DNA from: an uncultured Acidimicrobiia bacterium
Lineage (GTDB): Bacteria > Actinomycetota > Acidimicrobiia > IMCC26256 > JAENVU01
Length of the DNA: 64,000 bases
NCBI GenBank assembly: GCA_963770095.1
Contig: CAVYOO010000003.1
Coordinates: 594,382 to 658,381 of the forward strand
Direction: 5' to 3'
Position numbers and translations under genes: made by a program. Position 1 is the first letter of the stretch. Every line of letters begins with the position of its first letter. The notes beneath the pieces are model-generated. The model was not told the origin of the DNA and made no database searches. It worked only from the letters and a program-made list of their open reading frames with translations. Below are positions 6,551 through 45,996 of this stretch, piece after piece.

Positions 6551-6765
6551 CACGATGAAGCGGTCCCGGGCGGTCGGCGGGCGAGGGACGAACTCGCCGT
6601 TGCTGACCTCACCGGGCAGGATCGGCAGTGTGAGTTCCTGCTCATCGAGCTCTCGGCGCCGACGCGCGGACCACACCACGCCAACGGTACCCCGCACGCA
6701 CCGTTCGGGTTCCCGGCGGGATCGTGGAACCAGAACGGCCGGCGCGGGGTAGCACGGGTACTGGG

Positions 6766-7326
6766 ATGATCCCTACCGACAACGACCTGGTCGGCCGCGC
6801 GCAGGCCGGCGACATCGAGGCGCTCTGCGAGCTCGTGGAGCGCCACCGGGTGGTCGCGCTCCGCGTCGGCTACGCGATCGTCGGCCCCGAGGCGGAGGAC
6901 GTGGTCCAGGAGGCGTTCGTGCGGGCCGCGAGGAACATTGACCGATTTCGAGGCGAGTCACCGTTCCGGCCGTGGCTGTTGACGATCGTGGCGAACGAGG
7001 CACGCAACCGTCGCCGATCGGCGTCACGACGAAATGCACTGCAGCTGCGCATCGCGCATCGGGACGTCGCGGATGAGGTCGGGAGCGGCGACACCAGATC
7101 GAGCGAGGAGATCGCGATGGCCAATGAACGACGGCAATGGCTGCTCCATGCGGTTGCCGGATTACCCGACCGGGACCGTGAGGTGATCGCGCTGCGCTAC
7201 TTCGCCGATCTCTCGGAAGCCGAGACCGCGACGGCACTGGCCGTCCCGGTCGGAACGATCAAGTCGCGGCTGTCCCGCGCGCTGGTGAGGCTCCGCGCAT
7301 CCCTCGGTGTGGCGGTGGTCTCGTGA
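6766..7326 (+). CDS. ECF (sigma-70 family) RNA polymerase sigma factor
   Basis: Region 2 (DVVQEAFVRAARNIDRFRGESPFRPWLLTIVANEARN) and region 4 (LPDRDREVIALRYFADLSEAETATALAVPVGTIKSRLSRA). Confidence 0.85.
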   Translation: MIPTDNDLVGRAQAGDIEALCELVERHRVVALRVGYAIVGPEAEDVVQEAFVRAARNIDRFRGESPFRPWLLTIVANEARNRRRSASRRNALQLRIAHRDVADEVGSGDTRSSEEIAMANERRQWLLHAVAGLPDRDREVIALRYFADLSEAETATALAVPVGTIKSRLSRALVRLRASLGVAVVS

Positions 7327-9346: not shown

Positions 9347-9619
9347 TTGAACACCATTTCGATCCAAGGCGAACGGATGCACGTTCCCGAACGTCTCGTC
9401 GTCGCCCCGTCCGCCGGCGTGTTCCTCCTGCTCCCACCCGAGGCGACCTCGACGGAGGGTGATCTGGTCGCGCCGGGCCAGTCGATCGGGATCATCGACG
9501 GTCCGGGGACGTCGACCCAGGTGCGCAGCCCGTTCGCGGGATTCCTGATGGGCATGCTCGCCGAACCGGGTCAGCGACTCCGCGCCGGAGAGCCGGTCGC
9601 CTGGTTGCGCAGCGCGTGA
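9347..9619 (+). CDS. Small biotin/lipoyl-attachment-like hybrid domain protein (no AMKM lysine)
   Basis: GDLVAPGQSIGIIDGPGTSTQVRSPFAGFLMGMLAEPGQRLRAGEPVAWL has the barrel-hybrid pattern of BCCP/lipoyl domains but no biotinyl-lysine motif. Stop overlaps the next gene start (GTGA). Confidence 0.4.
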   Translation: MNTISIQGERMHVPERLVVAPSAGVFLLLPPEATSTEGDLVAPGQSIGIIDGPGTSTQVRSPFAGFLMGMLAEPGQRLRAGEPVAWLRSA

Positions 9620-11006
9620 ACCCGCGCCTCGCCGGCTCCATGACGCCGATCATGGATCGCCGGAGCGAGTCTGCCGCGGCGCGCATCGTCGAGTGGGCCG
9701 GTAGCCCGATCGTGGAGCTGCGCGTAGAAGGTGGGAAGCACCATGGCGCGGTGGGCGCAGCCGGTGCCGAGACGATGGAGCGGGCGATCCGCCTGGCCAC
9801 CGAGCTCGGGATGCCGTTCGTCGCCCGGCTCGACACGACCGGCGCCGACGTCGGCGAAGGCGTCAGCTCGCTGCACGGCTGGGGCCGGTGCGCACGCGCG
9901 CTGGTAGACGCTTCGGGCGTCGTCCCGACGATCATCATCGTGACGGGCGCCTGCGTCTCGGGACCGGCGCTCTGCCTCGGGCTCGTCGACCACGTGATCA
10001 TGACGACCGCCGCCTTCGCGTACGTCAGCGGTCCTGAAGCGGTGGCTGAGCTCACTGGCGTCACGCTCGATCGCTTCGAGCTCGGCGGCGCCGCGATGCA
10101 CTGCCGCGACAGTCGGGGTCGCGTCGCTCGTCGTCGAGGACGAACCCGCGGCAGATGACGCGCTCGCGGTCCTGCTGGCGTACCTCCCACCCAACCACGT
10201 TGAAGACGCCCCGTCGTGGTACTGCGACGATCCGGTCGATCGCGATTGTGAGGAGGCCGCCGGCGCCGTCCCGGGCTCACCGACCGCGTCGTATGACGTT
10301 CGGACGGTGGTGCGCGACGTCGTCGATGCCGGCTCGCTGCTCGAGCTGCGTCCACTCCATGCGCCGAACATCGTCGTTGGGCTCGCGCACCTCGACGGGC
10401 GGTCCGTCGGCGTCGTCGCCAACCAGCCGTTCTCGCGAGCGGGTGCCCTGGACATCTCGGCATCGCAGAAGGCAGCGCGGTTCGTGCAGTGGTGTGACGC
10501 GTTCAACCTTCCCGTCGTCACCTTCGTCGACACTCCCGGTTTCGAGCCGGGGAAGGACCTCGAGTGGCGGGGGATGATCCGCCACGGGGCGCAGCTCGTG
10601 CACTCGTACGCCGCGGCAACGGTGCCGCGGTTGTGCGTGGTGTTGCGCAAGGCGTACGGCGGCGCGTACATCGTCATGGACTCGAAGCAGCTAGGGAACG
10701 ACTACTGCCTCGCGTGGCCGGGAGCCCAGATCGCGGTGATGGGAGGGTCCGGCGCAGTGCAGGTCCTGCACGGCAAAGCGCTTGCCGCGATCGACGACCC
10801 CGAGACGCGTCGCCGCGGAGCACGAGCGCCTGCTGACGGAGTACGACGAACGCTTCAACCACCCGTATGCCGCGGCCGAGCGTGGGTACGTCGACGAGGT
10901 GATCGACCCCCTCGATACCCGCCGCGCGCTCTCGGGCGCACTCGATCACTTCTCGCGCAGGCGCGAAGGTGCCCCCAGACGCCGGCACTCGAATTCGCCG
11001 CTCTGA
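9616..11006 (+). CDS. Acyl-CoA carboxylase carboxyltransferase (PccB/AccD-like); two apparent frameshifts at about 10114 and 10810
   Basis: N-domain (LDTTGADVGEGVSSLHGWG...GACVSGPA...GGAAMH) in frame 1. After CGGGG (10114-10118) it continues in frame 2 (SGVASLVVEDEP...VVANQP...KAARFVQWCDAFNLPVVTFVDTPGFEPG...RKAYGGAYIVMDSK). The C-terminal end (AEHERLLTEYDERFNHPYAAAERGYVDEVIDP) is in frame 0. Confidence 0.75.
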
Positions 11007-16686: not shown

Positions 16687-18168
16687 TTGCGGTGGATCGT
16701 GTCGTTCGCCCTCTTTCTCGCCGTGGGCGCGACCTGGGCTCTGGCGTCGCCGATCTACTCGGGACCCGACGAGCCGTCACACGTCATCCATGCCGCGGCG
16801 ATCCCGCGTGGTGATCTCATCGGGACCTCCCGCAAGGGTGAGCCCAACGTGTACGTCACCGCGCCGCGCGTGTATCGCGAGGGCCCGGACTGCTTTGCGT
16901 TCCATCCCCAGATCCCGGCGAACTGCTTCCACCTGGCGGACGCGCTGTCCGGCAACGGCTCGCTCCCCACGTACACCGCTCGCTACCTCCCGCCCTACTC
17001 CGCATACATCGGGTTCGGGAGCTACTGGGTCCCGCCGGGCTCGGGCCAGATCTATCTCATGCGTCTCCTGGGTGCGGCGTTGGTAGCTGCGTTGCTCGCG
17101 TCGGCGGTGTCGACGGTGACCGCGGTGGGAACGCTCGGTTTCTCGTTGGGGTTCCTCTTCGCGCTGACGCCGATGGCGTTGTACTTCAGCGGGATCGTGA
17201 ATCCGAGCACCCCGGAGATCGCAGCGGGCATCGCGTTGTGGACCCATGGAATCGCGCTCAGCGATACGGGCGTCGGGGACGATCCGCGCGTGCTGCGAAG
17301 ATTCGGGATCGCGGCATGCGTCCTCGCGGTGACGCGTCCGCTCTCACCGCTGTGGCTGCTGCTCACGGTGATCATTCTCGTGTTCGTCGCGGGCCGCCCC
17401 CGCGTCGAGTCGCTGATCAAGCGCCGCGCGGTGCAGGCCTGGGCCGCCGCGGCCATCGGTCTCACGATGGTGCAGGTCGCCTGGTCCGCGTGGGCCAAGC
17501 CGCTCAGCGAAGGCAACACGGCTCAGAAGGGCCTCGACCGGCCGATCAGCTTCATCTTCGAGCAGAGCATCGGGAAGCTCTACTGGTCCAACACCCGCGA
17601 GATGATCGGCATGTTCGGCTGGCTCGACACGGTGACCCCGATGGCGACCACGATCTTCTGGCTCGTCGCGGTGGGCGCGCTGGTCCTCTTCGCAGTCACC
17701 GCGGGGAATCGTCGCGTCGCCTGGACAGTGGGAGTGACGCTCGCACTCACCTACGTCGTGCCCGTAGCGATCGAGACGGCTCGGGCGAGCGCAAACAACC
17801 TGGTGTGGCACGGCAGGTACACGTTGCCGTTCGCCGTCGGGATACCGCTGCTCGCGGGCTACACGCTGCGCGAGCTCGTCGGCACGAAGCTCGCGATCAA
17901 GCGGTTCGCGTGGTGGCTGGTGGTCGCGTTCGTGGTGGCGCAGATGCTCGCGTTCAACCAGGCACTGCGCCGGTACACGTCCGGGGTCAACGGGCCGTTC
18001 TGGTTCTGGACCTCTGACACCTTCTGGTCACCTCCGGTCCCGTCGTGGATCCTGGTCTTCGGCTACCTCGCGCTCATGATCGGGATCGTCGCGTCGGTCA
18101 TCCGGATACCGATGGCGCCGCGCACGACCGCGGCACCAGTTGGTGCGCAAGACTCCCCGCTCAACTGA
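16687..18168 (+). CDS. DUF2142-family polytopic membrane protein (predicted glycosyltransferase-like)
   Basis: Signal/TM then YSGPDEPSHVIHAAAI (the PDE..H motif characteristic of DUF2142), followed by more than 10 TM helices. Confidence 0.7.
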   Translation: MRWIVSFALFLAVGATWALASPIYSGPDEPSHVIHAAAIPRGDLIGTSRKGEPNVYVTAPRVYREGPDCFAFHPQIPANCFHLADALSGNGSLPTYTARYLPPYSAYIGFGSYWVPPGSGQIYLMRLLGAALVAALLASAVSTVTAVGTLGFSLGFLFALTPMALYFSGIVNPSTPEIAAGIALWTHGIALSDTGVGDDPRVLRRFGIAACVLAVTRPLSPLWLLLTVIILVFVAGRPRVESLIKRRAVQAWAAAAIGLTMVQVAWSAWAKPLSEGNTAQKGLDRPISFIFEQSIGKLYWSNTREMIGMFGWLDTVTPMATTIFWLVAVGALVLFAVTAGNRRVAWTVGVTLALTYVVPVAIETARASANNLVWHGRYTLPFAVGIPLLAGYTLRELVGTKLAIKRFAWWLVVAFVVAQMLAFNQALRRYTSGVNGPFWFWTSDTFWSPPVPSWILVFGYLALMIGIVASVIRIPMAPRTTAAPVGAQDSPLN

Positions 18169-19856
18169 ACTACCGGGAGCTCCGAGCGTGTCGACACGGT
18201 CAAGGCGAGGGTTGCGCGCGGTGTTGCACTACCGCGACTACCGCTTTCTTGTCGCGGCGTCTTCGGTATCGCAGACCGGGGACTGGCTGTACAACGTCGC
18301 GCTGCTCGTCTGGGTCTACGGGGCCACCGGATCGGCGGGCTGGGTCGCATTCGTCACGGTCGCGCGGACTCGTTCCGTACGTGGTGGTGGGTCCATTCGG
18401 CGGCCTGGTCGCGGATCGCTACGACCGGCGCACGATCCTCATCGTCTCCGATGTCTCACGCGCGGTGCTCATGTTCGTGCTCGCGATCGTGACGGCGCTC
18501 GACGGACCAGTCGGCATCGCCGCCGCGGCCGCCTTCCTCACGACTGCCCTCGGGACTGCCTATCGACCTGCAGTGGTCGCGATGCTCCCCGAGATGGTGG
18601 ACGAGCGTGACCTCGCGAGTGCGAATGCGGCCGAGAGCATCGTCGAGAACCTGTCGGTGGTTCTCGGTCCCGCGATCGGCGCCGGTCTGCTCGTCATCGG
18701 AACGACCACCTTCTCGTTCGCACTCAACGGCGTGACGTTCCTCGCGTCCGCGGCCCTCGCGGGGGCTCTGCAGATCCGCAGCCGCGGAGGCGCCCGGCTG
18801 CACGAAGAGGGAAAGAGCTTCTGGTCCGGCCACGTGGTCCACGGATTTCGTGAGCTCGGCCAGACCGCCGATGCACGGGTGCTCGGCGGGTTCATGCTCG
18901 GCACGTCGTTCATCTACGGCATCCAGTCGGTCGTCCTGGTGCTGGTCGCCGGCGAGCAGCTCCAAGCCGGGGTCGACGGCGTCGGGATCTTCTATGCCGC
19001 GCTGGGAGTCGGCGGCGTTGTCGGCGCCGCATTCGTCGGCCGTCTCGCCCGCTCGGCCCGACTCGGCGCAGTCCTCTACGGCGCGTTGCTCGTCGCGTCG
19101 GTACCGATGGCCGCGCTGGCCATCACGAGCTCCGGTGGCCCCGCCTTCACGCTGGTGGTGATGTCGGGCATGGGCATCGTGGTCCTCGACGTGCTCGCGC
19201 TGACCCAGCTTCAGCGCGCGGTTTCGGTCGACGTTCTCGGGCGCGTCTGGGGCGCGCTCGACGCACTGACAGTTGCCGCGATCATCGTGGGATCGCTCGT
19301 CGTGTCACCCGTCATCGACGCGCTGGGCGCCGACTCCGCGTTCATCGTGCTCGCGCTCGCAGTTCCAGCACTCGGGTTGCTCGGCGTCGGTGGGCTGCTG
19401 AGGGCGGATCGTGAATCCGTGGAGCTCCTCGACCGCATTGGGCCGGCGGTGGAGGTCTTCGAGCAGGTGCCGGTGCTCGAGGATGCCGACCGCGCCGTGA
19501 TCGAACGACTTGCGTCGGCCGCGGTCGTCCAGCCCGTGCCGATCGGAACAGACGTCGTCGTACAGGGGGAACCGTCCGAGCACTTCTACATCGTGGAGTC
19601 CGGGCGCCTCGACGTGCTCGTCCAGAGCGACGGCGGTGTACCGGAGCAGGTCAACGTGCTCGGGGCCGGGGACTGGTTCGGCGAGCTCGGGCTTCTGCAC
19701 GACCTGCCCCGGGCCGCGACTGTGCGCGCCCGTTGGCCGTCGCAGGTCTGGCGCATCGACGGGACCGAGCTCCTCGACGCGGTCAACGGCGCGCCGACGC
19801 TGGCCGCGACGCTGCTCGAAGGCATCGCGGGCCGCATCGGTTCCGGCGACCGCTGA
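18140..19856 (+). CDS. MFS transporter fused to C-terminal cyclic-nucleotide-binding domain; frameshift at about 18371
   Basis: N-terminus (YRDYRFLVAASSVSQTGDWLYNVALLVWVYGATGSAGWVAFVTVAR) in one frame, continuing after a 1-bp shift as LVPYVVVGPFGGLVADRYDRRTILIV (EntS-like MFS). C-terminal GTDVVVQGEPSEHFYIVESGRLDVL...GAGDWFGELGLLHDLPRAATVRA is a cNMP-binding fold. Confidence 0.7.
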
Positions 19857-19904
19857 CCCGGCCGGCCAACCCGCGCTGTCGTGACGCTCTGCAACGATGG
19901 GAAG

Positions 19905-20348
19905 ATGACGACGCCGATCACACCCAGGCACTACAGCGCCGAGACCGCCGCCGCGATCGCCGGATCCGACAGTCAGCTGACCGGGTTGCCTGCATATCTG
20001 GGCATCCGTACGGTCGAGGTCGGGCCCGCCCGCATGGTCGCGGAGCTCGACGTTCGTCCCGAGCTGCTCAATCCCTTCGGCACCGCGCATGGAGGTGTGG
20101 TGGCCGGGTTGGTGGATCACGTGCTCGGGTCGGTGCTCTACCCGGTGATCGACCGCGGTCAGTGGGCAGCCACGACGGAGTTCAAGCTCAACCTGGTCGC
20201 GACGGTGCGCACCGGTGTCTTGCGCGCCGAGGCGACGATCGTCGCGATGAGCAGGCGGACCGCAGTGGTGCACGTCGAGGTGACCAACGACGGCAAGCTC
20301 GCCTGCATGGCGCAAGGCACCGTGCTCATCCCCGAGGCGCCCAGCTAG
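19905..20348 (+). CDS. PaaI-family hotdog-fold thioesterase
   Basis: NPFGTAHGGVVAGLVDHVLGSVLYP...TTEFKLNLVATVRTGVLRAEATIVAMSRRTAVVHVEVTNDGKLACMAQGTVLI matches TIGR00369-like signature. Confidence 0.8.
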   Translation: MTTPITPRHYSAETAAAIAGSDSQLTGLPAYLGIRTVEVGPARMVAELDVRPELLNPFGTAHGGVVAGLVDHVLGSVLYPVIDRGQWAATTEFKLNLVATVRTGVLRAEATIVAMSRRTAVVHVEVTNDGKLACMAQGTVLIPEAPS

Positions 20349-20413: not shown

Positions 20414-21184
20414 GTGCACACCTCCTCGACACACGACACCGGGGCCCGGGTGCGTGCCCGTGAGAGGATCAGCCGCATGACCGGAGCAGCGTCGGGCGCG
20501 CGGATTCGCGACGCTCTGGTCGCGGCATGTCACCCGGAACCCATGGCGGATGCGTCTGTCGGGACGATGACCGTCACGGGGTTCCTCGCGCCGTGGTACC
20601 GGTCCGACGCCGTTCCGCTGGATCTCGGTGTGACTCCGGCGATCGGGGTCGAGCCAACCACGATCGACGTCGACCGTTTGGTTGTGCGCCTCTTCGAGCA
20701 AGAAGGGCAGTCGCTCGTGCGGCTGGCGCGGATCTTCGTTGACGACCGGAACGCCGCCGAGGATCTGGTGCAGGAGGCGTTCATCCGCCTCGCCCGCTCT
20801 GCGCACCGGATCAAGGACGAGGCCAAGGCGGCGCCGTACCTGCGGTCGATCGTCCTCAACCTCGCTCGTGACAACAATCGCCGGGGGTTGGTCTCGCTCC
20901 GCCATCACCTCCCCACGGACGAGCGTCGGGCGTCGACCGAGGACGAGATCGAGCTGCGCGAAGACCAGCAGCAGGTGATCGACGCGTTGCGCGAGCTGTC
21001 GTATCGGCAGCGCAACGCGCTGGTGCTTCGCTACTACGAAGAAATGGGAATCGACGACATCGCGGCGGCGATGGGGATATCCCGCAACTCGGTGAAGACG
21101 CATCTCAAGCGCGGACTTGCCGCGCTCGAGGCGCGGCTCGGCGAAGCGAACGAGCTCGTCGGCGAATCGGAGGTCACGACGTGA
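20414..21184 (+). CDS. ECF sigma factor (extended N-terminus; start uncertain)
   Basis: Region 2 (LVQEAFIRLARSAHRIKDEAKAAPYLRSIVLNLARD) and region 4 (LSYRQRNALVLRYYEEMGIDDIAAAMGISRNSVKTHLKRG). Confidence 0.8.
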   Translation: MHTSSTHDTGARVRARERISRMTGAASGARIRDALVAACHPEPMADASVGTMTVTGFLAPWYRSDAVPLDLGVTPAIGVEPTTIDVDRLVVRLFEQEGQSLVRLARIFVDDRNAAEDLVQEAFIRLARSAHRIKDEAKAAPYLRSIVLNLARDNNRRGLVSLRHHLPTDERRASTEDEIELREDQQQVIDALRELSYRQRNALVLRYYEEMGIDDIAAAMGISRNSVKTHLKRGLAALEARLGEANELVGESEVTT

Positions 21185-21810
21185 CTGCCGTCGAGCAGCG
21201 CCTGCGTGACGCGCTCATCGACGAAGCGGACGCGCTCGACGAGAGCGAGGACCTCTTCGCGCGTGTCGCGCTGAGCATCGGGGACGACCGGCAGCTGCGC
21301 CGCCAGCGACGTCGTCGCGTCGCGGTCATCGGCTGTCTCGTCGGGGCGATCATCGCTGTCGTACTTGCGACTACGGAACGAACGAAGGGAGAGATCGTCA
21401 TGGACTGGTGGGTCTTGGAGCTGATCTGGTTTGCCGGGATGGTGTTCCTGGCGTTGTGGCTCGGACCGTTCATCCGGCGGTTCGGCAAGAGCTATGCGGC
21501 TGACGTCTTCCGCGCGAATCCGCGGACGGGCAAGAGCTTCATCGTGCTGATGGACGTGGCGTACTACCTGATCTTCTTCGCATTCATCCTCTTCACGGTG
21601 CGGTTCGAACCCGACGTCGGCTGGGGTGAGACCGTGAACGCGAACCAGCTGCAGGCGGTCACGGTTCGGCTCGGCGGGATCCTGCTGATCGTCGGGGTGC
21701 TGCACGGGCTCAATGTGTTGATGCTGCCGATCATCGGGCGGATACTCACGCTGAACCGCCGCCTGGACGAGGACACCCCACCACCCGCGGCGCGAGCGCG
21801 CCAGGACTGA
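21181..21810 (+). CDS. Membrane protein, putative cognate anti-sigma factor
   Basis: GTG overlaps the sigma stop (GTGA). Short cytoplasmic N-terminus then 4 TM helices. Confidence 0.5.
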   Translation: MTAVEQRLRDALIDEADALDESEDLFARVALSIGDDRQLRRQRRRRVAVIGCLVGAIIAVVLATTERTKGEIVMDWWVLELIWFAGMVFLALWLGPFIRRFGKSYAADVFRANPRTGKSFIVLMDVAYYLIFFAFILFTVRFEPDVGWGETVNANQLQAVTVRLGGILLIVGVLHGLNVLMLPIIGRILTLNRRLDEDTPPPAARARQD

Positions 21811-23174: not shown

Positions 23175-24128
23175 ATGGCCGAGAACGTCATCGAGATCGA
23201 GGGGCTGCGAAAGGAGTACCGGCGCCGACGTGAGAACACCGTCGCGGTGGCTGGGCTGGATCTCGCGGTGCCCGCAGGCGGCGTCTTCGGATTCCTCGGG
23301 CCGAACGGGTCGGGCAAGACGACAACGATCCGATGTCTCCTGGGTCTGGTCCGGCCGACCAAGGGATCGCTGCGCCTCCTCGGGCGGACGGTGCCGGGCG
23401 GGCTGGCCGAGTCGCTCCGGGAAGTTGGTGCGATCGTCGAGTCACCGGCGCTGTTCCCCTCGATGAGTGGCCGCGACAACCTCGCCCTGCTCGGCGCAAT
23501 CGATCGCATCGGCACGAAGCGGGTCGACGAGGTGCTCGAGACGGTCGGGCTCACAGAACGCGCGAGCGACCCGGCCGGGAAGTACTCACTCGGCATGCGT
23601 CAACGGTTGGCTCTCGCCGCGGCGCTGCTGAAGGACCCCGCGTTGCTGATCCTCGACGAGCCGGCGAACGGTCTCGATCCGGCCGGCATGCGCAGCGTGC
23701 GCGAGCTACTTCGTACCCTTGCCGACGAGGGGCGAACGGTCTTCGTGTCGAGTCACCTGCTCGCCGAGATCCAGCAGACCTGCGACCGGGTCGCGATCCT
23801 CAGCCGGGGTCGATGCGTCGCTCGGGGCACGGTGGCCGAGGTGAGCGCGGCCGCGGGGCACGGCGAGGCGATGCTCGTCACCGTCGACGACCCGACGAGC
23901 GCGCTCGTAGTTCTCGGTCGTGCCGGCATCGCCGCCGAACCAAGGGACGGACGGCTCCGGGTCGCGCTGGGGGCCTCGGACGCGGCACGAATCAGCAGGA
24001 CGCTGGGTGAGCGTGGCTTCTGGGTGTCCGATCTACGCCCCGACGAACACAACCTGGAGGACGTCTTCCTCGAGGTGACGACTGATCTCGGCCGGCGTGC
24101 CGATGAGCTCGAGGAGGTCGAGCGATGA
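23175..24128 (+). CDS. ABC transporter ATP-binding protein (ABC-2/DrrA-like)
   Basis: Walker A GPNGSGKTT, signature LSLGMRQRL, Walker B LLILDEP, H-loop. Intact 317 aa. Confidence 0.9.
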   Translation: MAENVIEIEGLRKEYRRRRENTVAVAGLDLAVPAGGVFGFLGPNGSGKTTTIRCLLGLVRPTKGSLRLLGRTVPGGLAESLREVGAIVESPALFPSMSGRDNLALLGAIDRIGTKRVDEVLETVGLTERASDPAGKYSLGMRQRLALAAALLKDPALLILDEPANGLDPAGMRSVRELLRTLADEGRTVFVSSHLLAEIQQTCDRVAILSRGRCVARGTVAEVSAAAGHGEAMLVTVDDPTSALVVLGRAGIAAEPRDGRLRVALGASDAARISRTLGERGFWVSDLRPDEHNLEDVFLEVTTDLGRRADELEEVER

Positions 24129-26673: not shown

Positions 26674-27249
26674 GTGGCGATGGAGATGCCGACCGTCGGG
26701 TGGGAGCGCCGGACGCGCGAGCGGCTGATCTCCGGCGACGAAGCCGCACTCGGAGACTGCTACGACCAGTTCTCCGCGTTCGTCTACGGCCTCGTGCTGC
26801 GCGTCCTGCGGGACGCCAAGGCCGCGGAGGACATCACCCAGGATGTCTTCCTCAGCCTCTGGGAGTGCCCGGATCGCTTCGATCCGGGGAAAGGCGCGCT
26901 CCGTACCTGGCTCGGCACGCTCGCACACCGCCGCGCGGTGGATCACGTACGCCGCGAGGAAGCGCGCCGCCGCCGCGACGAAGCGGGGGCCGGCCGGATC
27001 GCGTCGATCCCCGACGTGGAGGAGATGGCGCTGGCGTTGATGACGTCCGAGCGGGTGCGCGAGGCGCTCGAGGGGCTATCGCCCGAGCAACGCGAGGCGA
27101 TTCACCTCGCGTACTTCGACGGTAAGACGTACCGGGAAGTCGCGGTCTGCATGGGCATACCGGAGGGCACCGCGAAATCCCGGCTCCGGCTCGCCTTGCG
27201 GCGGGTCGCGAGCACACTCGAGTCAGAGGATCTGCGCCAATGGCCATGA
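26674..27249 (+). CDS. ECF sigma factor
   Basis: DITQDVFLSLWECPDRFDPGKGALRTWLGTLAHRRAVDHVR (region 2) and LSPEQREAIHLAYFDGKTYREVAVCMGIPEGTAKSRLRLALRR (region 4). Confidence 0.85.
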   Translation: MAMEMPTVGWERRTRERLISGDEAALGDCYDQFSAFVYGLVLRVLRDAKAAEDITQDVFLSLWECPDRFDPGKGALRTWLGTLAHRRAVDHVRREEARRRRDEAGAGRIASIPDVEEMALALMTSERVREALEGLSPEQREAIHLAYFDGKTYREVAVCMGIPEGTAKSRLRLALRRVASTLESEDLRQWP

Positions 27250-33593: not shown

Positions 33594-33878
33594 CCGAACC
33601 AGGATCTGGTACGCCGACGGTGTGTCGCCGGCGCGCAGCCCGCGGATCGCCAGCTCCTCGCCCTCGACGGTGACGATCCCGATCCGTCCGGCGCGCACAC
33701 CGGACTTGTGCGTGATGCGCGCGAGGTCGCCAATCGGGATGACGCGAGTTCCCCTGCTGTCGACGATCACGAGCCGGTTCGTGAACGCGGAGACGAGCGC
33801 AGCGCGACCGTTGACCTTGACCGAGTTGAGGATGAGCGCGGCCTCGTCGTCCACGCCCGCACCGTATCCGCGTGTCAT
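33573..33878 (-). CDS. Small hypothetical protein (PH-like beta-rich), convergent and overlapping the GNAT 3' end by 21 bp
   Basis: Manual check shows about 88% GC3 in this minus-strand frame. NSVKVNGRAALVSAFTNRLVIVDSRGTRVIPIGDLARITHKSGVRAGRIGIVTVEGEELAIRGL. Confidence 0.45.
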   Translation of the reverse strand: MTRGYGAGVDDEAALILNSVKVNGRAALVSAFTNRLVIVDSRGTRVIPIGDLARITHKSGVRAGRIGIVTVEGEELAIRGLRAGDTPSAYQILVRLALAAQ

Positions 33879-35142
33879 ATGGTGAGCCCGTGCGCGCATT
33901 GATCTTCGGGGTCCAGCCCGATCCGCAGCCCAAGCCCGACACCGACAACCGGCTGCTCCGGGCCCTGGCCCGAACCCCCGTGAAGCTCGTCGAGATGGAC
34001 GACCCGGGGTTCCTTCGTCCGGACTGGGTGGTCACGAAGCCTCGGCTCACCGGCATCTGCGGTTCGGAGTCCAAGCAGATCTTCTTCGACTACGCGAGCT
34101 TCACCTCGAAGGACCGCGGCTCGGGCGACAACCAGGACAACCCGATGAAGAACTTTGTCTCGTTCCCCCACGTGATGGGCCACGAGGTTGTGGCGGACGT
34201 CGTCGCGATCGGGCCGGAGGCCGAAGGGCTCGAAGTCGGTGACCGGGTCGTGCTGAATCCGTGGCTCACCTGCGCGCCGCGTGGGGTCGAGCCGCGCTGC
34301 CCGGCGTGCGTCGCCGGCGACCTGAGCCAGTGCTGGTCGTTCGCGAAGGGGGACCTGGCGCCCGGGATCCACACCGGGATGTGCAAGGACGTGCCCGGCG
34401 GGTTCGGCGAGCTGATGCCGGCCCACGACTCGATGCTGTTCAAGGTGCCGGATTCGATCACGGACGAGCAGGCGGTCTTCGCGGATCCGTTCGCAGTGTC
34501 GCTCCACGGGATCACGCGGCATCCGCCACAACCCGGAAGCAAAGTGCTCGTCTACGGTGCCGGGGCGCTCGGCACGTCCGCGATCGCGATCCTGCGCGCG
34601 CTCTATCCCGACGTCGAGGTCATGGCGGTCGCCCGGTTCGACGCGCAGCGCCGGCTGGCGGAGGAGCTCGGCGCGATCACCGCCGCGCCCGAGCCGCGGG
34701 ACGCGCTGATCGAGACCATCGCGGCCTGGTCGGGTGGCGTGCTCCAACCGGCGGACGGTCTGCCGATGGCCTTCCCCGGCGGGATCGACGTGGTGTACGA
34801 CACGATCGGCGCCGCGGAGACGCTCGAGGTCGGGGCGCGGGTGCTGCGGCGCGCGGGACGCTGGTGAAGCTCGGCATGCACGGCCCGGCCCGGTGGGAGG
34901 ACACGCCGGTGTACTTCAAGGAGATCACGTTCACCGGATCCAACGCGTTCGGGTTCGAGGAGGTGGACGGCGTACGCCGGCACGGCATCGCGCACTACCT
35001 GGACCTGGTCGCTCACGACCGCATCGACCTCACACCGATGCTCACCCACACGTTCCGGCTCGACGAGTGGCGCGCCGCGTTCACCGCGCTCGCGACCCAG
35101 GACGAGAGCGGCGCGATCAAGGTCGCCATCGACCAGCGCTGA
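33872..35142 (+). CDS. Zn-dependent alcohol dehydrogenase (MDR family); frameshift in G-run at about 34851
   Basis: GICGSE, GHEVVADVVAIG, C..C..C..C structural-Zn loop, GAGALG Rossmann. C-terminal 90 aa in +1 frame (TLVKLGMHGPARWED...KVAIDQR*). Confidence 0.75.
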
Positions 35143-43088: not shown

Positions 43089-43802
43089 CTACGCGATCGG
43101 GGACCACGTCGACGTGCGAAGCAGGCGGCTCTCCCAGTCGTCACGCACGTTGAGGGCGTCGTGCATCCAGGTTCCGGGGGCGCGGTGCTCGGCAGGGATC
43201 TCGCTGGTGAGCAGGCCGAGGATTCCGGCCGGCTTCGTGACCCGCTGCCAGAGGATGACCTCCCGTCGCCGCGCGCTCGTACCCCACGCGGGCGTGAGCA
43301 CCGCTTCGAGCTCGAGCAGCGACCGTCCACCGTGACGCCCGTCGGCGAGGCTCGGCGCGTAGTTGTCGCGAGCGGCCTCGAGGTACTCCTCCATCTTCCC
43401 GGCGTGGGGCCAGGCGGTGTCCTCCATGAAGAGGGTGGGGTCGTGCTCGTCACCGCCGGTCGGAACGTTCTCGAGGTCGACAGCCTGGAGCGGTGACCAT
43501 TCCACCGGCATCAAGATCTTGCTCGTCACGTCGTGGCGCATCGTGTCGACCTTGGTCATCCACTCTCGCAGGTCGCCCCGGCGCGTCCGCTCGGCGAGAC
43601 GTTCCCAGGCCGCGCCGTCGGTGATCGCGGTGAGGGTGATCATGTTGTACGCCCGCCCGGTGCCGTGAGCGTGCCTCGCGAAGTACAGCAGCCGCGTGTC
43701 GGCGGTCTGCGCGAGCGTCGGCATCCACACTTCGCGGTACGCACGCTCGAACGCGTCCTCGTGCAGCCCCATCACGCGGTGAATCTCGTGCACGAACAAC
43801 AT
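43089..43802 (-). CDS. Hypothetical protein (NIPSNAP/dimeric alpha-beta-barrel-like)
   Basis: 237 aa, high GC3, intact. Confidence 0.5.
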   Translation of the reverse strand: MLFVHEIHRVMGLHEDAFERAYREVWMPTLAQTADTRLLYFARHAHGTGRAYNMITLTAITDGAAWERLAERTRRGDLREWMTKVDTMRHDVTSKILMPVEWSPLQAVDLENVPTGGDEHDPTLFMEDTAWPHAGKMEEYLEAARDNYAPSLADGRHGGRSLLELEAVLTPAWGTSARRREVILWQRVTKPAGILGLLTSEIPAEHRAPGTWMHDALNVRDDWESRLLRTSTWSPIA

Positions 43803-43954: not shown

Positions 43955-45001
43955 ATGCTGGTTGCCGCGCTGCGGGACCTGCAATGGCGCAGGCGCAGGT
44001 TTCTGATCGCGGTGCTCGGAACCGCGCTCGTCTTCTCGATGACGTTGGTGTTGGCCGGGCTCTCCGCTGCATTCGTCAACGAGGTCGACCGGACCATTGG
44101 GACCACCGGTGCGGATGATTGGGCGATCGCCGAAGGCGCGACCGGCCCGTTCAACTCGTCGGCCGTTCTTCCGGTGGGGACGCTCGCCACCGCGCGTCGC
44201 CTTCCCGGGGTGCAAGGCGCGGATCCGTTCGTCGCCATCGGCGCCACGATCCCGGGCGACACTCCGAAGCACGTGACGATGATCGGTGCGGTCCCCGGCG
44301 GCGTCGGCAGTCCCAAGGTCGACGACGGCCACGCGCCGCGTGAACCCGGGGAGGTCGCCGTCGGGAGCCGGCTGGGCAAGGACATCGGCGACACGGTGCA
44401 GATCGGCACCAAGCAGCTGAAGGTCGTCGGCGTCGTTGACGGGTCGGGGCTCTACGGCGGCATGCCCAACGTGTTCCTCACCCTGAAGGACGTGCAGGCC
44501 CTGACCTTTGGCGGCGCGCCGCTCTTCACTTCGATCGCCCTCCGCGGAACCCCGCGGGGTGAGATCTCGGGCGCACGGATCGTCACGATCAGCGACACGA
44601 AGCAAGATCTGCTGCAGTCGCTCGGCGCCGGTCGCCAGACGATCAACTTCGTGGGCGTCCTCCTTGCCATCGTGGCGGCGTGCATCGTCGGCTCGGTGAT
44701 CTACCTGTCCGCGCTGGAGCGGGTACGGGACTTCGCGGTCTTCAAGGCGACGGGAACCGGCACTCCGGCCTTGCTCGGTGGCTTGGCGGTGCAGGCCATG
44801 ATCGTGTCGCTCGTCGCGGCGGTGATCGGCGCCCTCCTCGCGTTGTTGCTGGCGCCGAGGTTCCCCATGCCCGCGGAGATACCCGCCGTCGCGTTCGCGG
44901 TGCTGCCGATCGTGGCGGTTGTCGTCGGCGCGCTGGCCAGCCTCGCCGGGTTGCGCCGAGCTATCACGGTCAGTCCCACGCTCGCGTTCGGCGGTGCGTG
45001 A
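43955..45001 (+). CDS. ABC transporter permease, FtsX/MacB-like
   Basis: N-terminal TM, large periplasmic domain, C-terminal 3-TM FtsX module (INFVGVLLAIVAACIVGSVIYLSALERVRDFAVFKATG). Confidence 0.8.
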   Translation: MLVAALRDLQWRRRRFLIAVLGTALVFSMTLVLAGLSAAFVNEVDRTIGTTGADDWAIAEGATGPFNSSAVLPVGTLATARRLPGVQGADPFVAIGATIPGDTPKHVTMIGAVPGGVGSPKVDDGHAPREPGEVAVGSRLGKDIGDTVQIGTKQLKVVGVVDGSGLYGGMPNVFLTLKDVQALTFGGAPLFTSIALRGTPRGEISGARIVTISDTKQDLLQSLGAGRQTINFVGVLLAIVAACIVGSVIYLSALERVRDFAVFKATGTGTPALLGGLAVQAMIVSLVAAVIGALLALLLAPRFPMPAEIPAVAFAVLPIVAVVVGALASLAGLRRAITVSPTLAFGGA

Positions 45002-45996
45002 TGCCCGAGCTCGAGATCAGCGATCTCGTCGTCGAGTACTCGACTGGCGGCTACGCGGTGCGCCCGATCGACGGGCTGTCCGTGCGATGCGAACCCGGCG
45101 AGCTCGTGTTGCTCCTGGGGCCGAGCGGGTGTGGCAAGACCACCTTGCTGTCCTGCCTCGGGGGGATCCTCACGCCGACCGAAGGCCGGATCTCGTTCGG
45201 TGAAGTGACCGTCACCGGTCTTGAGGGCGCGCAGCTCACGGAGTACCGACGCAACACGGTGGGCATCGTGTTCCAGGCGTTCAACCTCGTCCCGAGCCTC
45301 ACGGCGCTGGAGAACGTCGAGGTGCCGCTGCGGGCCGCGAAGATCCCGCGTGCGCAGCGCCGGGCGCACGCGACGGCGCTGCTCGAGCAGGTTGGCCTGG
45401 GCGAGCGGATGCAGCACCGACCCGGTGACATGTCCGGGGGTCAGCAGCAACGGGTGGCGATCGCGCGTGCGCTCGCGCTCGACCCGCCATTGCTCCTCGC
45501 CGACGAACCCACCGCGCACCTCGACTACATCGCGGTGGAGGAGATCCTGCGCCTCCTCCGGGATCTGGCGTCGGGTGAGCGAGTCGTCGTGATCTCCACC
45601 CATGACCAGCGCATGCTGCCCCTGGCCGATCGTGTCGTCGAGCTCGTCCCGCAGTTCGGCCAGGCCGAGGGGGGCGAACCGGAGGTCGTCGAGCTGGCGG
45701 CCGGCGAGGAGCTCTTCGCCCAGGGCTCCTTCGGCGAGCTGATCTACATGCTCGAGGCGGGTGAGATCGAGATCCTGCGTCGGCTCGAGGACGGCCGGTG
45801 GGAATCTCGGGCGACGCTCGGCGCCGGTCGCTACTTCGGCGAGATCGGCCCGTTGTTCGGCATGCCCCGTTCCGCGAGCGCACGCGCGAAGACCGCGGCT
45901 CGGGTTACCGGATACTCGGTCCGGGACTTCCGCCAGCGCATCGGTCCGCAGGGGATGGGAGACCTGCTCTCCCAAGCGGGTGACTCACCCGCGTAG
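45001..45996 (+). CDS. ABC ATP-binding protein (MacB/LolD-type) fused to C-terminal cyclic-nucleotide-binding-like domain
   Basis: Overlaps the permease stop (TGATG). GPSGCGKTT, MSGGQQQRVAIARAL, LLLADEPT. C-terminal GEELFAQGSFGELIYMLEAGEIEIL...RYFGEIGPLFGMPRSASARA resembles a cNMP-binding fold. Confidence 0.8.
   Translation: MPELEISDLVVEYSTGGYAVRPIDGLSVRCEPGELVLLLGPSGCGKTTLLSCLGGILTPTEGRISFGEVTVTGLEGAQLTEYRRNTVGIVFQAFNLVPSLTALENVEVPLRAAKIPRAQRRAHATALLEQVGLGERMQHRPGDMSGGQQQRVAIARALALDPPLLLADEPTAHLDYIAVEEILRLLRDLASGERVVVISTHDQRMLPLADRVVELVPQFGQAEGGEPEVVELAAGEELFAQGSFGELIYMLEAGEIEILRRLEDGRWESRATLGAGRYFGEIGPLFGMPRSASARAKTAARVTGYSVRDFRQRIGPQGMGDLLSQAGDSPA

What the first reader, a model, noticed from the sequence alone, without database searches (positions are those of the whole stretch)
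18140..19856. Two different transporters in one window carry fused cyclic-nucleotide-binding domains (MFS-cNMP here; ABC ATPase-cNMP at 45001-45996)
The MFS (EntS-like) has a C-terminal cNMP-binding beta-roll (GTDVVVQGEPSEHFYIVESGRL...GAGDWFGELGLLHDLPRAATVRA). The MacB/LolD-type ATPase at 45001-45996 is translationally coupled to its FtsX-like permease (43955-45001) and ends in a similar domain (GSFGELIYMLEAGEIEIL...RYFGEIGPLFGMPRSASARA). Such fusions are known in Actinomycetota (the M. tuberculosis Rv3728/Rv3239c- and Rv0073/Rv2564-type architectures) but remain functionally uncharacterised. Two in 30 kb suggests cAMP (or cGMP/c-di-NMP) gating of export in this organism. Each domain's nucleotide specificity should be checked from its cNMP-binding-site residues; I could not do that reliably by eye.
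Basis: partly seen in the sequence, partly recalled or inferred. Interest (0 to 1): 0.5.

Follow-up and report, generated by a model that had tools for sequence, protein, structure and literature searches.

The report
Two transporters with cyclic-nucleotide sensor domains
Two unrelated membrane transporters in this soil actinobacterial genome each end in a genuine cyclic-nucleotide (probably cAMP) sensor domain, an architecture already catalogued but never tested experimentally, and the first gene is broken by a one-base frameshift that is most likely an assembly error.

Summary
Pfam finds cNMP_binding (PF00027) at the C-terminus of an EntS/DHA3-like MFS gene and of a MacB/LolD-type ABC ATPase. 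The ATPase overlaps its FtsX/MacB_PCD permease by TGATG.

In both families the ribose/phosphate-contact residues of the binding cassette (FGE…PR.A) are invariant or nearly so. The models show a beta-roll fold like that of PKA.

An extra base at 18368 separates codons 1-60 (TM1 and part of TM2) from the rest. A 95%-identical metagenome protein is intact. The window carries at least four more confirmed frameshifts, so I favour an assembly indel over a pseudogene.

The window contains no cyclase. Elsewhere, 41 of 80 species have a class III cyclase domain within 6 kb of the MFS-cNMP gene. One protein fuses CHASE2, cyclase, MFS and cNMP domains. Some ABC-cNMP loci sit beside cyclase, cNMP-patatin, USP or phosphoesterase genes.

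The best reading is two independent cAMP-gated exporters with unknown substrates. The ABC pair has the Rv2563/Rv2564 architecture. The MFS lacks the patatin domain of Rv3728/Rv3239c. This is a new member of a known, uncharacterised kind and of modest interest.

The parts
16687..18168 (+). DUF2142 membrane protein immediately upstream of the MFS gene. It ends 19 nt before the GTG at 18188 and is probably co-transcribed.
   Evidence: Pfam DUF2142, E 2.1e-36. The adjacency is kept only in the close clade L001, L003, L004 and L006.
18188..18367 (+). MFS-cNMP gene, codons 1-60 (TM1 and the start of TM2), in a different reading frame from the rest of the gene.
   Evidence: tblastn with the intact homologue places aa 1-60 here in frame 2. 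The start matches P0002, P0003 and P0241. GGGAG lies upstream of the GTG.
18368..18368 (+). One extra base (GCG CGG A CTC GTT, or an extra G in CGGA) that causes a +1 frameshift.
   Evidence: Relatives read GCC CGA/CGG CTG/CTC GTC CCG with no extra base. Deleting this base gives a 555-aa protein that is 95% identical and gapless to P0241.
18369..19856 (+). MFS-cNMP gene, codons 61-555 plus the stop codon (rest of TM2 to TM12, then the CNB domain). The public annotation is a truncated 491-aa product.
   Evidence: (P0001). The AF2 model of the 81%-identical P0002 shows 12 TM helices and a long TM12 extension leading into the CNB domain.
19455..19853 (+). Cyclic-nucleotide-binding domain of the MFS protein (helix A, beta-roll, helices B and C). 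The Pfam core is 19539-19781.
   Evidence: PF00027, E 8.8e-18. phmmer matches PKA RI-alpha and PKG CNB domains at about 1e-26 to 1e-28. Foldseek gives TM 0.83 to PKA RI-alpha CNB-B.
19677..19730 (+). Phosphate-binding cassette FGELGLLHDLPRAATVRA.
   Evidence: F, G, E, P, R and A are invariant across 18 family members down to 37% identity.
19881..20348 (+). 4HBT/PaaI-type thioesterase 24 nt downstream. It may belong to the same operon.
   Evidence: Pfam 4HBT, E 1.8e-11. It is also downstream in L006.
43955..45001 (+). FtsX-type permease with a MacB periplasmic core domain (type VII ABC transmembrane subunit).
   Evidence: Pfam MacB_PCD and FtsX. It is 84% identical over its full length to the L002 orthologue, which starts at the equivalent ATG.
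44999..45003 (+). TGATG stop/start overlap between the permease and the ATPase.
   Evidence: Sequence shown.
45001..45996 (+). ABC ATPase with a C-terminal CNB domain. It has Walker A GPSGCGKTT, signature MSGGQQQR, Walker B LLLADEPT and H-loop THD.
   Evidence: Pfam ABC_tran and cNMP_binding. Motifs are located. The NBD is closest to MacB, MJ0796, LolD, FtsE and HrtA.
45682..45993 (+). CNB domain of the ATPase: a minimal N-terminal part, a beta-roll and one long C-terminal helix. The Pfam core is 45688-45936.
   Evidence: PF00027, E 1.5e-15. phmmer matches PKA RI-alpha CNB-A at 3e-16 and CRP at 4e-7. The AF2 model has strands at 228-305 and a helix at 307-325.
45835..45888 (+). Phosphate-binding cassette FGEIGPLFGMPRSASARA.
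   Evidence: F279, G280, P289, R290 and A292 are invariant, and E281 and S291 are at least 90% conserved, in 34 homologues.

Best explanation
The window encodes two separate cyclic-nucleotide effector transporters. I take the nucleotide to be cAMP.

(1) The first is a 555-aa DHA3/EntS-like MFS proton antiporter. Its TM12 continues as a cytoplasmic helix into a complete CNB domain.

(2) The second is a type VII (MacB/LolCDE/FtsEX-like) ABC system. It consists of a 4-TM FtsX permease with a periplasmic core domain and an ATPase whose NBD is followed, after a linker of about 12 residues, by a minimal CNB domain and one long C-terminal helix.

Shown: the domain composition, intact ATPase motifs, conserved cNMP ribose/phosphate contacts, and the fold.

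Inferred: cAMP binds the cassette through the Glu and Arg contacts and repositions the C-terminal helices. In the MFS this would move the CNB domain against the cytoplasmic face and bias the inward/outward alternation. In the ABC system the two CNB domains under the NBD dimer would control NBD closure and hence ATPase activity. This is the same logic as the C-terminal regulatory domains of MetN, ModC and OpuA. Both transporters are probably exporters. Their substrates are unknown. Whether cAMP activates or inhibits them is also unknown.

The two genes are independent targets of the same messenger and do not form one machine. The frameshift at 18368 is most likely an indel error in the assembly, so the organism probably makes the full-length MFS protein.
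For: Domain calls are well above Pfam cutoffs. The CNB domains align to cAMP-bound PKA RI-alpha, PKG and CRP, with Gly-Glu and Arg in register.

Cassette residues are invariant or nearly so across both families. The models show a beta-roll with B and C helices, and Foldseek gives TM 0.83 to PKA RI-alpha CNB-B.

Exporter type: the MFS is nearest TIGR00900 DHA3, EntS, Tap and Mef, and the NBD is nearest DevA, FtsE, LolD and MacB.

Context supporting a cyclase-made ligand:
- 41 of 80 GTDB species have a class III cyclase domain within 6 kb of the MFS-cNMP gene.
- All 8 neighbours scanned are Guanylate_cyc + AAA_16 + TPR proteins.
- P0357 is a single-ORF fusion of CHASE2, cyclase, MFS and cNMP domains.
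- L084 holds MFS-cNMP, a double cyclase, FtsX/ABC-cNMP, Usp, Metallophos and a free CNB protein within 11 kb.
- L085 and L032 place a cNMP-patatin protein next to FtsX/ABC-cNMP.

Seven of the eight cyclase domains examined carry Lys in the K-x-I/V-G-D motif; the eighth (L040) has no such motif. From memory, this is the ATP-specifying position.

Frameshift as an error:
- A 95%-identical intact homologue, P0241, exists.
- At least four further frameshifts in conserved genes of the window are confirmed by split Pfam profiles.
- The six junctions that were bracketed lie at short G runs.
Against: No ligand binding or transport has been measured for any member of either family (PMC10710835, PMC9995111).

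The window and its closest relatives (L001, L003, L004, L006) have no cyclase near either gene.

The residue after the cassette Arg varies in the MFS family: Thr 58, Asn 47, Ser 8, Ala 3. Thr is the PKG-type cGMP signature, so base specificity cannot be read from the sequence.

The ABC CNB domain lacks most of the N-terminal helical subdomain, and its cassette is modelled with low confidence (pLDDT below 50 at residues 283-289).

All 17 other genes shared with the syntenic contig are in frame, so the indel rate is uneven and a true mutation cannot be excluded.

The cyclase enrichment has no proper genomic background control.
Confidence: 0.6

Rival explanations
1. The MFS-cNMP gene is a genuine pseudogene in this organism. 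The extra base at 18368 is real, TM1 is uncoupled from the rest, and only the ABC-cNMP system is functional.
For: The frameshift is in the deposited sequence, and the public gene call is the truncated 491-aa P0001. All 17 other genes shared with the syntenic contig L001/L002 are in a single frame. The carboxyltransferase gene carries two frameshifts, as a decaying gene might.
Against: Apart from the single base, the reading frames are clean. There are no stop codons or deletions, and the repaired protein is 95% identical and gapless to the intact P0241.

At least five confirmed frameshifts, plus two probable ones, fall in otherwise well-conserved genes within 64 kb. The junctions lie at short G runs. 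A related long-contig ENA assembly also shows fragmented gene calls (L086). This pattern fits long-read indel errors.
Confidence: 0.2
2. The CNB-like domains do not sense a 3',5'-cyclic mononucleotide. They bind another ligand, as some CRP/FNR-family domains do, or serve only as dimerisation or docking modules.
For: The CAP_ED fold is used for other ligands in CRP/FNR relatives (general knowledge). The ABC CNB domain is minimal and its cassette is poorly modelled. The base-contacting position after the Arg varies widely in the MFS family.
Against: The residues that contact the ribose 2'-OH and the cyclic phosphate (Gly-Glu and Arg-x-Ala) are invariant or nearly so in both families. Cyclase genes are adjacent in about half of the MFS-cNMP loci, and in one protein the cyclase is fused to the MFS-cNMP.
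Confidence: 0.12
3. The physiological ligand is cGMP or another cNMP, not cAMP, at least for the MFS family.
For: Most MFS-cNMP relatives carry R-T-A-T, the motif of PKG and CNG channels. The ABC family has R-S-A-[TS], where the Ser could hydrogen-bond to guanine.
Against: The window's own MFS has R-A-A-T, as in PKA. CRP and MlotiK1 carry R-S-A and use cAMP (from memory). Seven of the eight neighbouring cyclase domains examined have Lys, not Glu, in the K-x-I-G-D motif. cAMP is the established actinobacterial messenger (PMC9995111).
Confidence: 0.08

Closest known systems
M. tuberculosis Rv2563/Rv2564 (GlnQ) and Rv0072/Rv0073
   Same: Both have a MacB-like 4-TM permease with an external domain and an ABC ATPase carrying PF00027 (PMC7761784, PMC4886424). 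The window ATPase is 64-66% identical to Mycobacterium and Mycolicibacterium MAG proteins of the same architecture. In L085 and L032 the pair sits beside a cNMP-patatin gene, as Rv2564 sits beside Rv2565. Function is untested in both.
   Different: The host is an uncultured Acidimicrobiia-like bacterium. No cNMP-patatin gene or cyclase-like neighbour is present here.
M. tuberculosis Rv3728 / Rv3239c (MFS + cNMP + NTE/patatin esterase)
   Same: An MFS efflux-type transporter fused C-terminally to a CNB domain. Both are listed as MFS pumps of unknown function (PMC6300501, PMC10865251).
   Different: The protein here ends about 40 residues after the CNB beta-roll (555 aa), and no patatin/NTE domain is present. 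The three-domain architecture of the Mtb proteins is recalled from memory and annotation and was not checked here.
MFS-CNBD fusions catalogued by Willson et al. 2019 (cited in PMC10710835)
   Same: The same architecture: a C-terminal CNBD on a bacterial MFS transporter, proposed to be regulatory and with none characterised.
   Different: That survey is a catalogue. This analysis adds the link to cyclase-STAND-TPR genes, a cyclase fusion and ATP-grasp fusions.
ABC ATPases with C-terminal regulatory domains (MetN C2, ModC, MalK, OpuA CBS with c-di-AMP)
   Same: A ligand-binding domain appended to the C-terminus of the NBD that can control NBD dimer closure (PMC10710835). MetNI is among the Foldseek hits.
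   Different: Those systems are importers of types I and II. They sense the substrate or c-di-AMP through ACT-like or CBS folds. Here the system is a type VII mechanotransmission or exporter ABC with a CNB fold.
CNBD-regulated membrane transport proteins (MloK1/SthK/CNG/HCN channels; SLC9C1 Na+/H+ exchanger)
   Same: A cytoplasmic C-terminal CNBD attached through a helical linker to the last transmembrane helix. Foldseek lists CNG channels, AKT1 and SLC9C1 through the CNB domain.
   Different: Those proteins are channels or a CPA-type exchanger. None is an MFS or ABC transporter, and no solved structure combines MFS+CNB or NBD+CNB.

Membership tests
Cyclic nucleotide-binding domain (Pfam PF00027, CAP_ED) | Profile match above the curated gathering score | tested here: met
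   MFS: 64.5 bits. ATPase: 57.4 bits. The cutoff is 27.5 bits.
Cyclic nucleotide-binding domain (Pfam PF00027, CAP_ED) | Phosphate-binding cassette with Gly-Glu (ribose 2'-OH contact) and Arg-x-Ala (cyclic phosphate contact) | tested here: met
   The cassettes are FGELGLLHDLPRAATVRA and FGEIGPLFGMPRSASARA. They align in register with PKA RI-alpha FGELALIYGTPRAATVKA. F, G, P, R and A are invariant, and E is invariant or at least 90% conserved, across the families.
Cyclic nucleotide-binding domain (Pfam PF00027, CAP_ED) | Eight-stranded beta-roll flanked by helices | tested here: met
   The AF2 model of the 81%-identical P0002 gives TM 0.83 and rmsd 2.4 A to PKA RI-alpha CNB-B. The ATPase model has strands at 228-305 and a helix at 307-325, but the cassette has low pLDDT.
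Cyclic nucleotide-binding domain (Pfam PF00027, CAP_ED) | Binds cAMP or cGMP | not testable with these tools
   This needs ITC or DRaCALA. There is only indirect support from cyclase adjacency and a cyclase fusion.
MFS, DHA3 / EntS-like (PF05977 MFS_3; TIGR00900) | Twelve TM helices encoded in one continuous ORF | tested here: not met
   In this sequence codons 1-60 (TM1) are out of frame because of an extra base at 18368. Intact relatives have 12 TM helices.
MFS, DHA3 / EntS-like (PF05977 MFS_3; TIGR00900) | Profile match to MFS_3 / DHA3. EntS equivalog score for naming as EntS. | tested here: inconclusive
   Pfam MFS_3 scores 59 bits, above its cutoff of 27. TIGR00900 scores 164 bits against a cutoff of 320, and EntS NF007792 scores 84 against 324. 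It is related to the family but is not EntS itself.
Type VII ABC transporter (MacB / LolCDE / FtsEX / HrtBA) | Permease with a 4-TM FtsX domain and a MacB-type periplasmic core domain | tested here: met
   Pfam FtsX (E 2.9e-11) and MacB_PCD (E 6.6e-10) in 43877/43955-45001.
Type VII ABC transporter (MacB / LolCDE / FtsEX / HrtBA) | Cognate NBD of the MacB/LolD/FtsE clade with intact catalytic motifs, encoded adjacently | tested here: met
   The best solved and NCBIfam matches are MJ0796, MacB, LolD, FtsE and DevA. Walker A, signature, Walker B and H-loop motifs are present. The genes overlap as TGATG.
Type VII ABC transporter (MacB / LolCDE / FtsEX / HrtBA) | Partner proteins that define a subtype (MacA/TolC adaptor, EnvC-type hydrolase activator, lipoprotein carrier) | tested here: not met
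   None is found among the neighbours 39.3-48.6 kb. These are PhyH, PIG-L-like (by synteny), an unknown protein, an alpha/beta hydrolase, an unknown protein, Aminotran_5, cytochrome b561 and a Mo-oxidoreductase. The subtype and substrate are therefore unassigned.
Rv2563/Rv2564 - Rv0072/Rv0073 type (M. tuberculosis) | FtsX/MacB-like permease plus NBD with a C-terminal PF00027 domain | tested here: met
   The architecture here matches the published description (PMC7761784; PMC4886424, Table 2).
Rv2563/Rv2564 - Rv0072/Rv0073 type (M. tuberculosis) | Orthology to the H37Rv proteins by sequence | not tested
The only evidence is 64-66% identity to Mycobacterium sp. MAG proteins of the same architecture.
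Rv3728 / Rv3239c type (M. tuberculosis) | MFS + CNB + C-terminal patatin/NTE esterase domain (about 1050 aa; architecture recalled from memory) | tested here: not met
   The protein is 555 aa and ends after the CNB C-helix. Pfam finds no patatin domain. All 120 listed homologues are 331-652 aa, and none carries the Patatin family in its listed Pfam domains.

The most novel reading that the evidence does not exclude
The MFS-cNMP family is the output half of a widespread two-gene signalling module. A large (Zn-ribbon)-cyclase-STAND ATPase-TPR sensor makes cAMP locally, and the adjacent CNB-gated exporter releases a metabolite in response. In some lineages that metabolite would be made by a fused or adjacent ATP-grasp ligase.

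Together with ABC-cNMP and cNMP-patatin proteins, this would form a conserved cAMP-controlled programme of export or envelope-lipid remodelling. It would be shared by soil Actinomycetota, Dormibacterota and Chloroflexia, and it would be the ancestral context of the uncharacterised M. tuberculosis effectors Rv2564, Rv2565, Rv3728 and Rv3239c.
Probability: 0.3. Interest if true: 0.55.

Novelty: new member of a known kind. Interest (0 to 1): 0.3.

Why it matters
Actinobacteria devote much coding capacity to cAMP signalling. Apart from CRP, Mt-Pat and a USP, the effectors are uncharacterised, and the transporter-type effectors are among those with no assigned role (PMC9995111). This window adds ordinary new members of two such effector families, so on its own it changes little.

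The comparative context found along the way is more useful:
- cyclase-STAND-TPR genes lie beside the MFS-cNMP gene in about half of 80 species;
- one protein fuses CHASE2, cyclase, MFS and cNMP domains;
- ATP-grasp fusions occur in some lineages;
- one locus holds cyclase, phosphoesterase, USP, MFS-cNMP and ABC-cNMP genes together.

These give concrete hypotheses for the ligand and for which gene pairs to reconstitute. The report also flags that this assembly carries frequent frameshifts, which truncate gene calls in the public record.

Tried and rejected
- **Source contig look-up.** Exact look-up of the source contig through P0001 and P0121 found nothing on record. I used the syntenic JGI contig Ga0500616_0000273 instead.
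- **McCue et al. 2000.** This paper is the original classification of Mtb cNMP-binding proteins. It is not held in the library, so the Rv3728/Rv3239c domain order rests on memory.
- **Solved structures.** I looked for a structure combining NBD+CNB or MFS+CNB and found none.
- **NCBIfam.** I looked for a curated equivalog and none reaches its cutoff.
- **Cyclases and other cNMP genes in the window.** I scanned about 60 ORFs with Pfam and ran tblastn with cyclase and CNB queries. Nothing was found.
- **CRP-type operators.** A search for TGTGA-N6-TCACA gave only 2 loose matches, fewer than expected by chance, and none near either operon.
- **Programmed +1 frameshifting at 18368.** Rejected. There is no slippery or stall motif, relatives have a plain in-frame sequence, and several other genes in the window are also frameshifted.
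- **A functional link to the DUF2142 neighbour.** The adjacency is kept only in the closest clade, so I did not pursue it.
- **Two suspected frameshifts (Zn-ADH near 34860; amidohydrolase near 53850).** The short fragments gave no Pfam hit. They remain 'probable', judged by eye from the translations.
- **A recurrent CGCG(G)AC motif at four of six junctions.** Such a motif is expected in about 6% of random 30-nt windows. I picked the motif after seeing the data, so I report it only as a hint of context-dependent basecalling error.
- **Cyclic-dinucleotide binding.** Nothing supports it, and the cassette is the canonical 3',5'-cNMP type.


Full report
**What is in the sequence**

The window is 69% G+C. 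At the first site, the ORF 18045-19856 carries Pfam MFS_1 (E 3.2e-22), MFS_3 (3.4e-16) and cNMP_binding (8.8e-18). At the second site, the ORF 45001-45996 carries ABC_tran (1.3e-34) and cNMP_binding (1.5e-15). The gene before it, 43877/43955-45001, carries MacB_PCD and FtsX.

The permease stop codon and the ATPase start codon overlap as TGATG at 44999-45003. tblastn with seven CNB queries finds only these two CNB domains in the 64 kb. They are 32-37% identical to each other, so they are not recent duplicates.

The interval 18140-19856 is 1717 nt, which is not a multiple of three. The MFS_1 match in the long ORF begins at profile position 43. The missing first helix (…RDYRFLVAASSVSQTGDWLYNVALLVWVYGATGS…) is in another frame.

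An intact homologue aligns by tblastn as residues 1-60 at 18188-18367 in one frame and residues 61-555 at 18369-19853 in the next. Relatives read GCC-CGA/CGG-CTG/CTC-GTC-CCG where the window reads GCG-CGG-A-CTC-GTT-CCG, so the window has one extra base.

Removing base 18368 gives a 555-aa protein. It covers 100% of P0002 at 81% identity. It is 95% identical, with no gaps, to P0241, an intact 547-aa protein from an independent JGI metagenome.

The start is the GTG at 18188, preceded by GGGAG, as in the homologues. It is not the TTG at 18140. The public gene call is a truncated 491-aa protein, P0001, that lacks TM1 and half of TM2.

**Is the frameshift real?**

Other conserved genes in the window are also split between frames.
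- An acyl-CoA carboxyltransferase is spread over three frames: Pfam profile positions 70-196, 198-422 and 432-492.
- The catalytic and C-terminal domains of a WS/DGAT are in two frames.
- The Rossmann N-terminus of an NAD-epimerase is out of frame with the rest of the protein.
- A Zn-ADH and an amidohydrolase look split by eye, but their fragments gave no Pfam hit.

That makes at least five confirmed frameshifts and two probable ones in 64 kb. The six junctions that were bracketed lie at short G runs, and four of them contain CGCG(G)AC. The WS/DGAT junction also lies at a GGG run. A related long-contig ENA assembly shows similarly fragmented gene calls (L086).

On the other side, all 17 other genes shared with the syntenic contig are in a single frame.

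I judge an assembly indel more likely (about 0.75) than a true pseudogene. Only the reads can settle this.

**Are the C-termini real cNMP-binding domains?**

Yes. The MFS tail matches PKA RI-alpha, PKG and CRP CNB domains, with E-values down to 1e-28. The ATPase tail matches PKA RI-alpha CNB-A (3e-16), Mtb CRP and E. coli CAP.

In these alignments FGELGLLHDLPRAATVRA and FGEIGPLFGMPRSASARA lie in register with FGELALIYGTPRAATVKA of cAMP-bound RI-alpha.

Conservation of the cassette:
- Across 18 MFS-cNMP proteins, down to 37% identity, F497, G498, E499, P507, R508 and A510 are invariant.
- Across 34 ABC-cNMP proteins, F279, G280, P289, R290 and A292 are invariant, and E281 and S291 are at least 90% conserved.

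An AF2 model of P0002 (pLDDT 82.6) shows 12 TM helices. TM12 extends (residues 381-424) into helix A of the CNB domain, followed by a beta-roll and helices B and C. Foldseek superposes this CNB domain on PKA RI-alpha CNB-B at TM 0.83.

The ATPase model (pLDDT 73) has a MacB/LolD-like NBD, a short linker, a beta-roll (228-305) and one long C-terminal helix (307-325). The cassette is modelled with low confidence.

That is not met.

**Nucleotide specificity**

The ribose and phosphate contacts are conserved, but the residue after the cassette Arg is not diagnostic.
- In the window it is Ala in the MFS (RAAT, as in PKA) and Ser in the ATPase (RSAS, as in CRP and MlotiK1, from memory).
- Among the top 120 MFS-cNMP hits it is Thr in 58, Asn in 47, Ser in 8 and Ala in 3.
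- Among the ABC-cNMP hits it is Ser in 116 of 120.

Thr is the PKG/CNG-type residue, so cGMP cannot be excluded for parts of the MFS family.

Seven of the eight linked cyclase domains examined carry Lys in the K-x-I/V-G-D motif; the eighth (L040) lacks the motif. From memory this is the ATP-specifying position. cAMP is also the established actinobacterial messenger (PMC9995111). I therefore favour cAMP. Nothing suggests a cyclic dinucleotide.

**What kind of transporters are these?**

The MFS is nearest NCBIfam TIGR00900 (DHA3 H+ antiporters), EntS, Tet(V), Tap and Mef, all below their cutoffs. Structurally it is nearest ferroportin, YajR, LmrP, MdfA and NorA. It is an efflux-type MFS but not EntS itself.

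The NBD is nearest DevA, FtsE, LolD and MacB. Its closest solved structures are MJ0796, MacB, LolD, FtsE, HrtA and YbbA. All catalytic motifs are intact.

Together with the FtsX + MacB_PCD permease, this is a type VII ABC system. No adaptor, hydrolase activator or lipoprotein carrier is encoded nearby, so the subtype and substrate are open.

**Context in the window**

The MFS gene follows a DUF2142 membrane protein by 19 nt, and a 4HBT thioesterase follows it by 24 nt. The ABC pair is a two-gene unit between divergent and convergent neighbours.

No cyclase, phosphodiesterase, CRP-type regulator or further CNB protein was found among about 60 ORFs or by tblastn. No CRP-like operator lies near either unit.

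A related JGI contig carries both genes, intact, 26.7 kb apart and in the same order. The '30 kb' spacing is therefore inherited synteny and not an operon.

**Context elsewhere**

The MFS-cNMP family is large.
- It has relatives in 288 GTDB species, all MAGs, from Acidimicrobiia, Thermoleophilia, Dormibacterota, Chloroflexia and Mycobacteriales.
- Of the best 150 representatives at 50% identity, 140 match the profile in a single stretch; most are about 550 aa long and cover nearly the whole profile.

In 41 of the 80 loci fetched, a class III cyclase domain lies within 6 kb of the MFS-cNMP gene, and often there are two. All eight neighbours scanned are 1070-1375-aa proteins with Guanylate_cyc, AAA_16 and TPR domains, mostly with an N-terminal Zn-ribbon. 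Several lie next to the transporter gene, most of them on the opposite strand.

One representative, P0357, is a single ORF encoding CHASE2, Guanylate_cyc, MFS and cNMP_binding domains. It was seen once, on a 4.9-kb Logan contig.

In ten loci, seven of them labelled Ilumatobacteraceae or Acidimicrobiaceae, an ATP-grasp ligase follows the transporter gene. In P0288 and P0336 it is fused to the transporter.

ABC-cNMP loci vary.
- Two have a mycobacterial housekeeping context.
- L084 has MFS-cNMP, a double cyclase-AAA-TPR protein, Usp, Metallophos and a free CNB protein around the FtsX/ABC pair.
- L085 has a cNMP-NTE-patatin protein divergent from the pair, and a kinase-cyclase nearby.
- L032 places MFS-cNMP, ATP-grasp, transglutaminase-like, 2xcNMP-patatin and FtsX genes in 8 kb.
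- L087 has small CNB proteins and an MBL-fold hydrolase nearby.

USPs and atypical phosphodiesterases are known parts of mycobacterial cAMP signalling (PMC11107214, PMC9995111).

These associations support a cyclase-made ligand and a loose recurrent grouping of the effector types. They have no proper background control, and they are absent from the window's own clade.

**Mechanism: shown and inferred**

Shown: domain order, intact motifs, a conserved cassette and the fold.

Inferred: cAMP binding reorients the B and C helices. In the MFS this is transmitted through the rigid TM12 extension to the cytoplasmic gate. In the ABC system the two CNB domains and their long C-helices sit under the NBD dimer and control its closure. 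This is analogous to the C-terminal regulatory domains of MetN, ModC and OpuA (PMC10710835). Whether cAMP activates or inhibits, and what the substrates are, remains unknown.

**Comparison with what is known**

The ABC pair has the architecture published for Rv2563/Rv2564 and Rv0072/Rv0073 (PMC7761784, PMC4886424). Direct orthology was not tested.

The MFS has the MFS-CNBD architecture catalogued by Willson et al. 2019 (cited in PMC10710835). It lacks the patatin/NTE domain that, from memory, defines Rv3728/Rv3239c. These effectors are still described as potential and poorly understood (PMC9995111).

No solved structure combines these domains, and no NCBIfam equivalog exists.

**Verdict**

The finding is a new member of a known, uncharacterised kind. 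Interest is modest (0.3). The cyclase linkage and the fusion proteins are the most useful by-products.

Noticed in passing
window 9616-11000 (+): An acyl-CoA carboxyltransferase gene is split over three reading frames. The Pfam Carboxyl_trans profile matches at positions 70-196, 198-422 and 432-492, with shifts near 10101-10118 and 10804-10824. A small biotinyl/lipoyl-like ORF at 9347-9619 precedes it.
   Followed up: yes
window 48582-49960 (-); 58370-59298 (+); 33872-35140 (+); 53085-54154 (-): More frameshifted conserved genes. In a WS/DGAT the catalytic and C-terminal domains are in different frames. In an NAD-epimerase the N-terminus is out of frame. Both are confirmed by Pfam. A Zn-ADH and an amidohydrolase_2 look split by eye only. 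The junctions lie at short G runs, often in CGCG(G)AC, which suggests systematic indel errors in the assembly.
   Followed up: partly
L012, L017, L019, L039, L040, L050, L052, L056, L063, L080 and about 30 further loci: A large (Zn-ribbon)-Guanylate_cyc-AAA_16-TPR protein (1070-1375 aa) lies next to the MFS-cNMP gene, or within 6 kb of it, in 41 of 80 GTDB species. These are from Thermoleophilia, Dormibacterota, Chloroflexia and Mycobacteriales. It is absent from the window's own Acidimicrobiia clade.
   Followed up: partly
L088:1239-4769 (protein P0357): A single 1176-aa ORF fuses CHASE2, Guanylate_cyc, MFS_1 and cNMP_binding domains. This 'Rosetta stone' fusion links a sensor cyclase to the cNMP-gated MFS. 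It was seen on one 4.9-kb Logan contig only.
   Followed up: partly
L057:7167-8459, L032:5238-6530, and L022, L028, L036, L054, L058, L069, L074, L075; proteins P0288 and P0336: An ATP-grasp ligase (ATPgrasp_N + ATP-grasp_4) directly follows the MFS-cNMP gene in ten loci, seven of them labelled Ilumatobacteraceae or Acidimicrobiaceae. In P0288 and P0336 it is fused to the C-terminus of the transporter. The transporter may export the ligase product.
   Followed up: partly
L084:1-10877; L085:1055-10984; L032:3424-11166: Clusters of cAMP-signalling genes surround the FtsX/ABC-cNMP pair. L084 has MFS-cNMP, a double cyclase-AAA-TPR protein, Usp, Metallophos and a free CNB protein. L085 has a cNMP-NTE-patatin protein and a kinase-cyclase. 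L032 has MFS-cNMP, ATP-grasp, transglutaminase-like and 2xcNMP-patatin genes. This resembles the Rv2563-Rv2565 neighbourhood of M. tuberculosis.
   Followed up: partly
window 6724-7326, 20414-21184, 26674-27249 (+): The window encodes three ECF-type sigma factors. The one at 20414 is followed by an overlapping ORF with no Pfam match (21181-21810), which could be an anti-sigma factor.
   Followed up: no
window 36900-39242 (+), 40973-42328 (+), 43089-43802 (-): Three high-GC3 ORFs of 780, 451 and 237 aa have no Pfam match. The 451-aa and 237-aa ORFs are conserved in the syntenic contig, upstream of the ABC pair.
   Followed up: no
window 23175-24128 (+); 59802-61265 (+): Two further ABC ATPases lack CNB domains. 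The second is followed by a UPF0014 (FetB-like) permease. ABC systems fused to a CNB domain are therefore the exception in this window.
   Followed up: no
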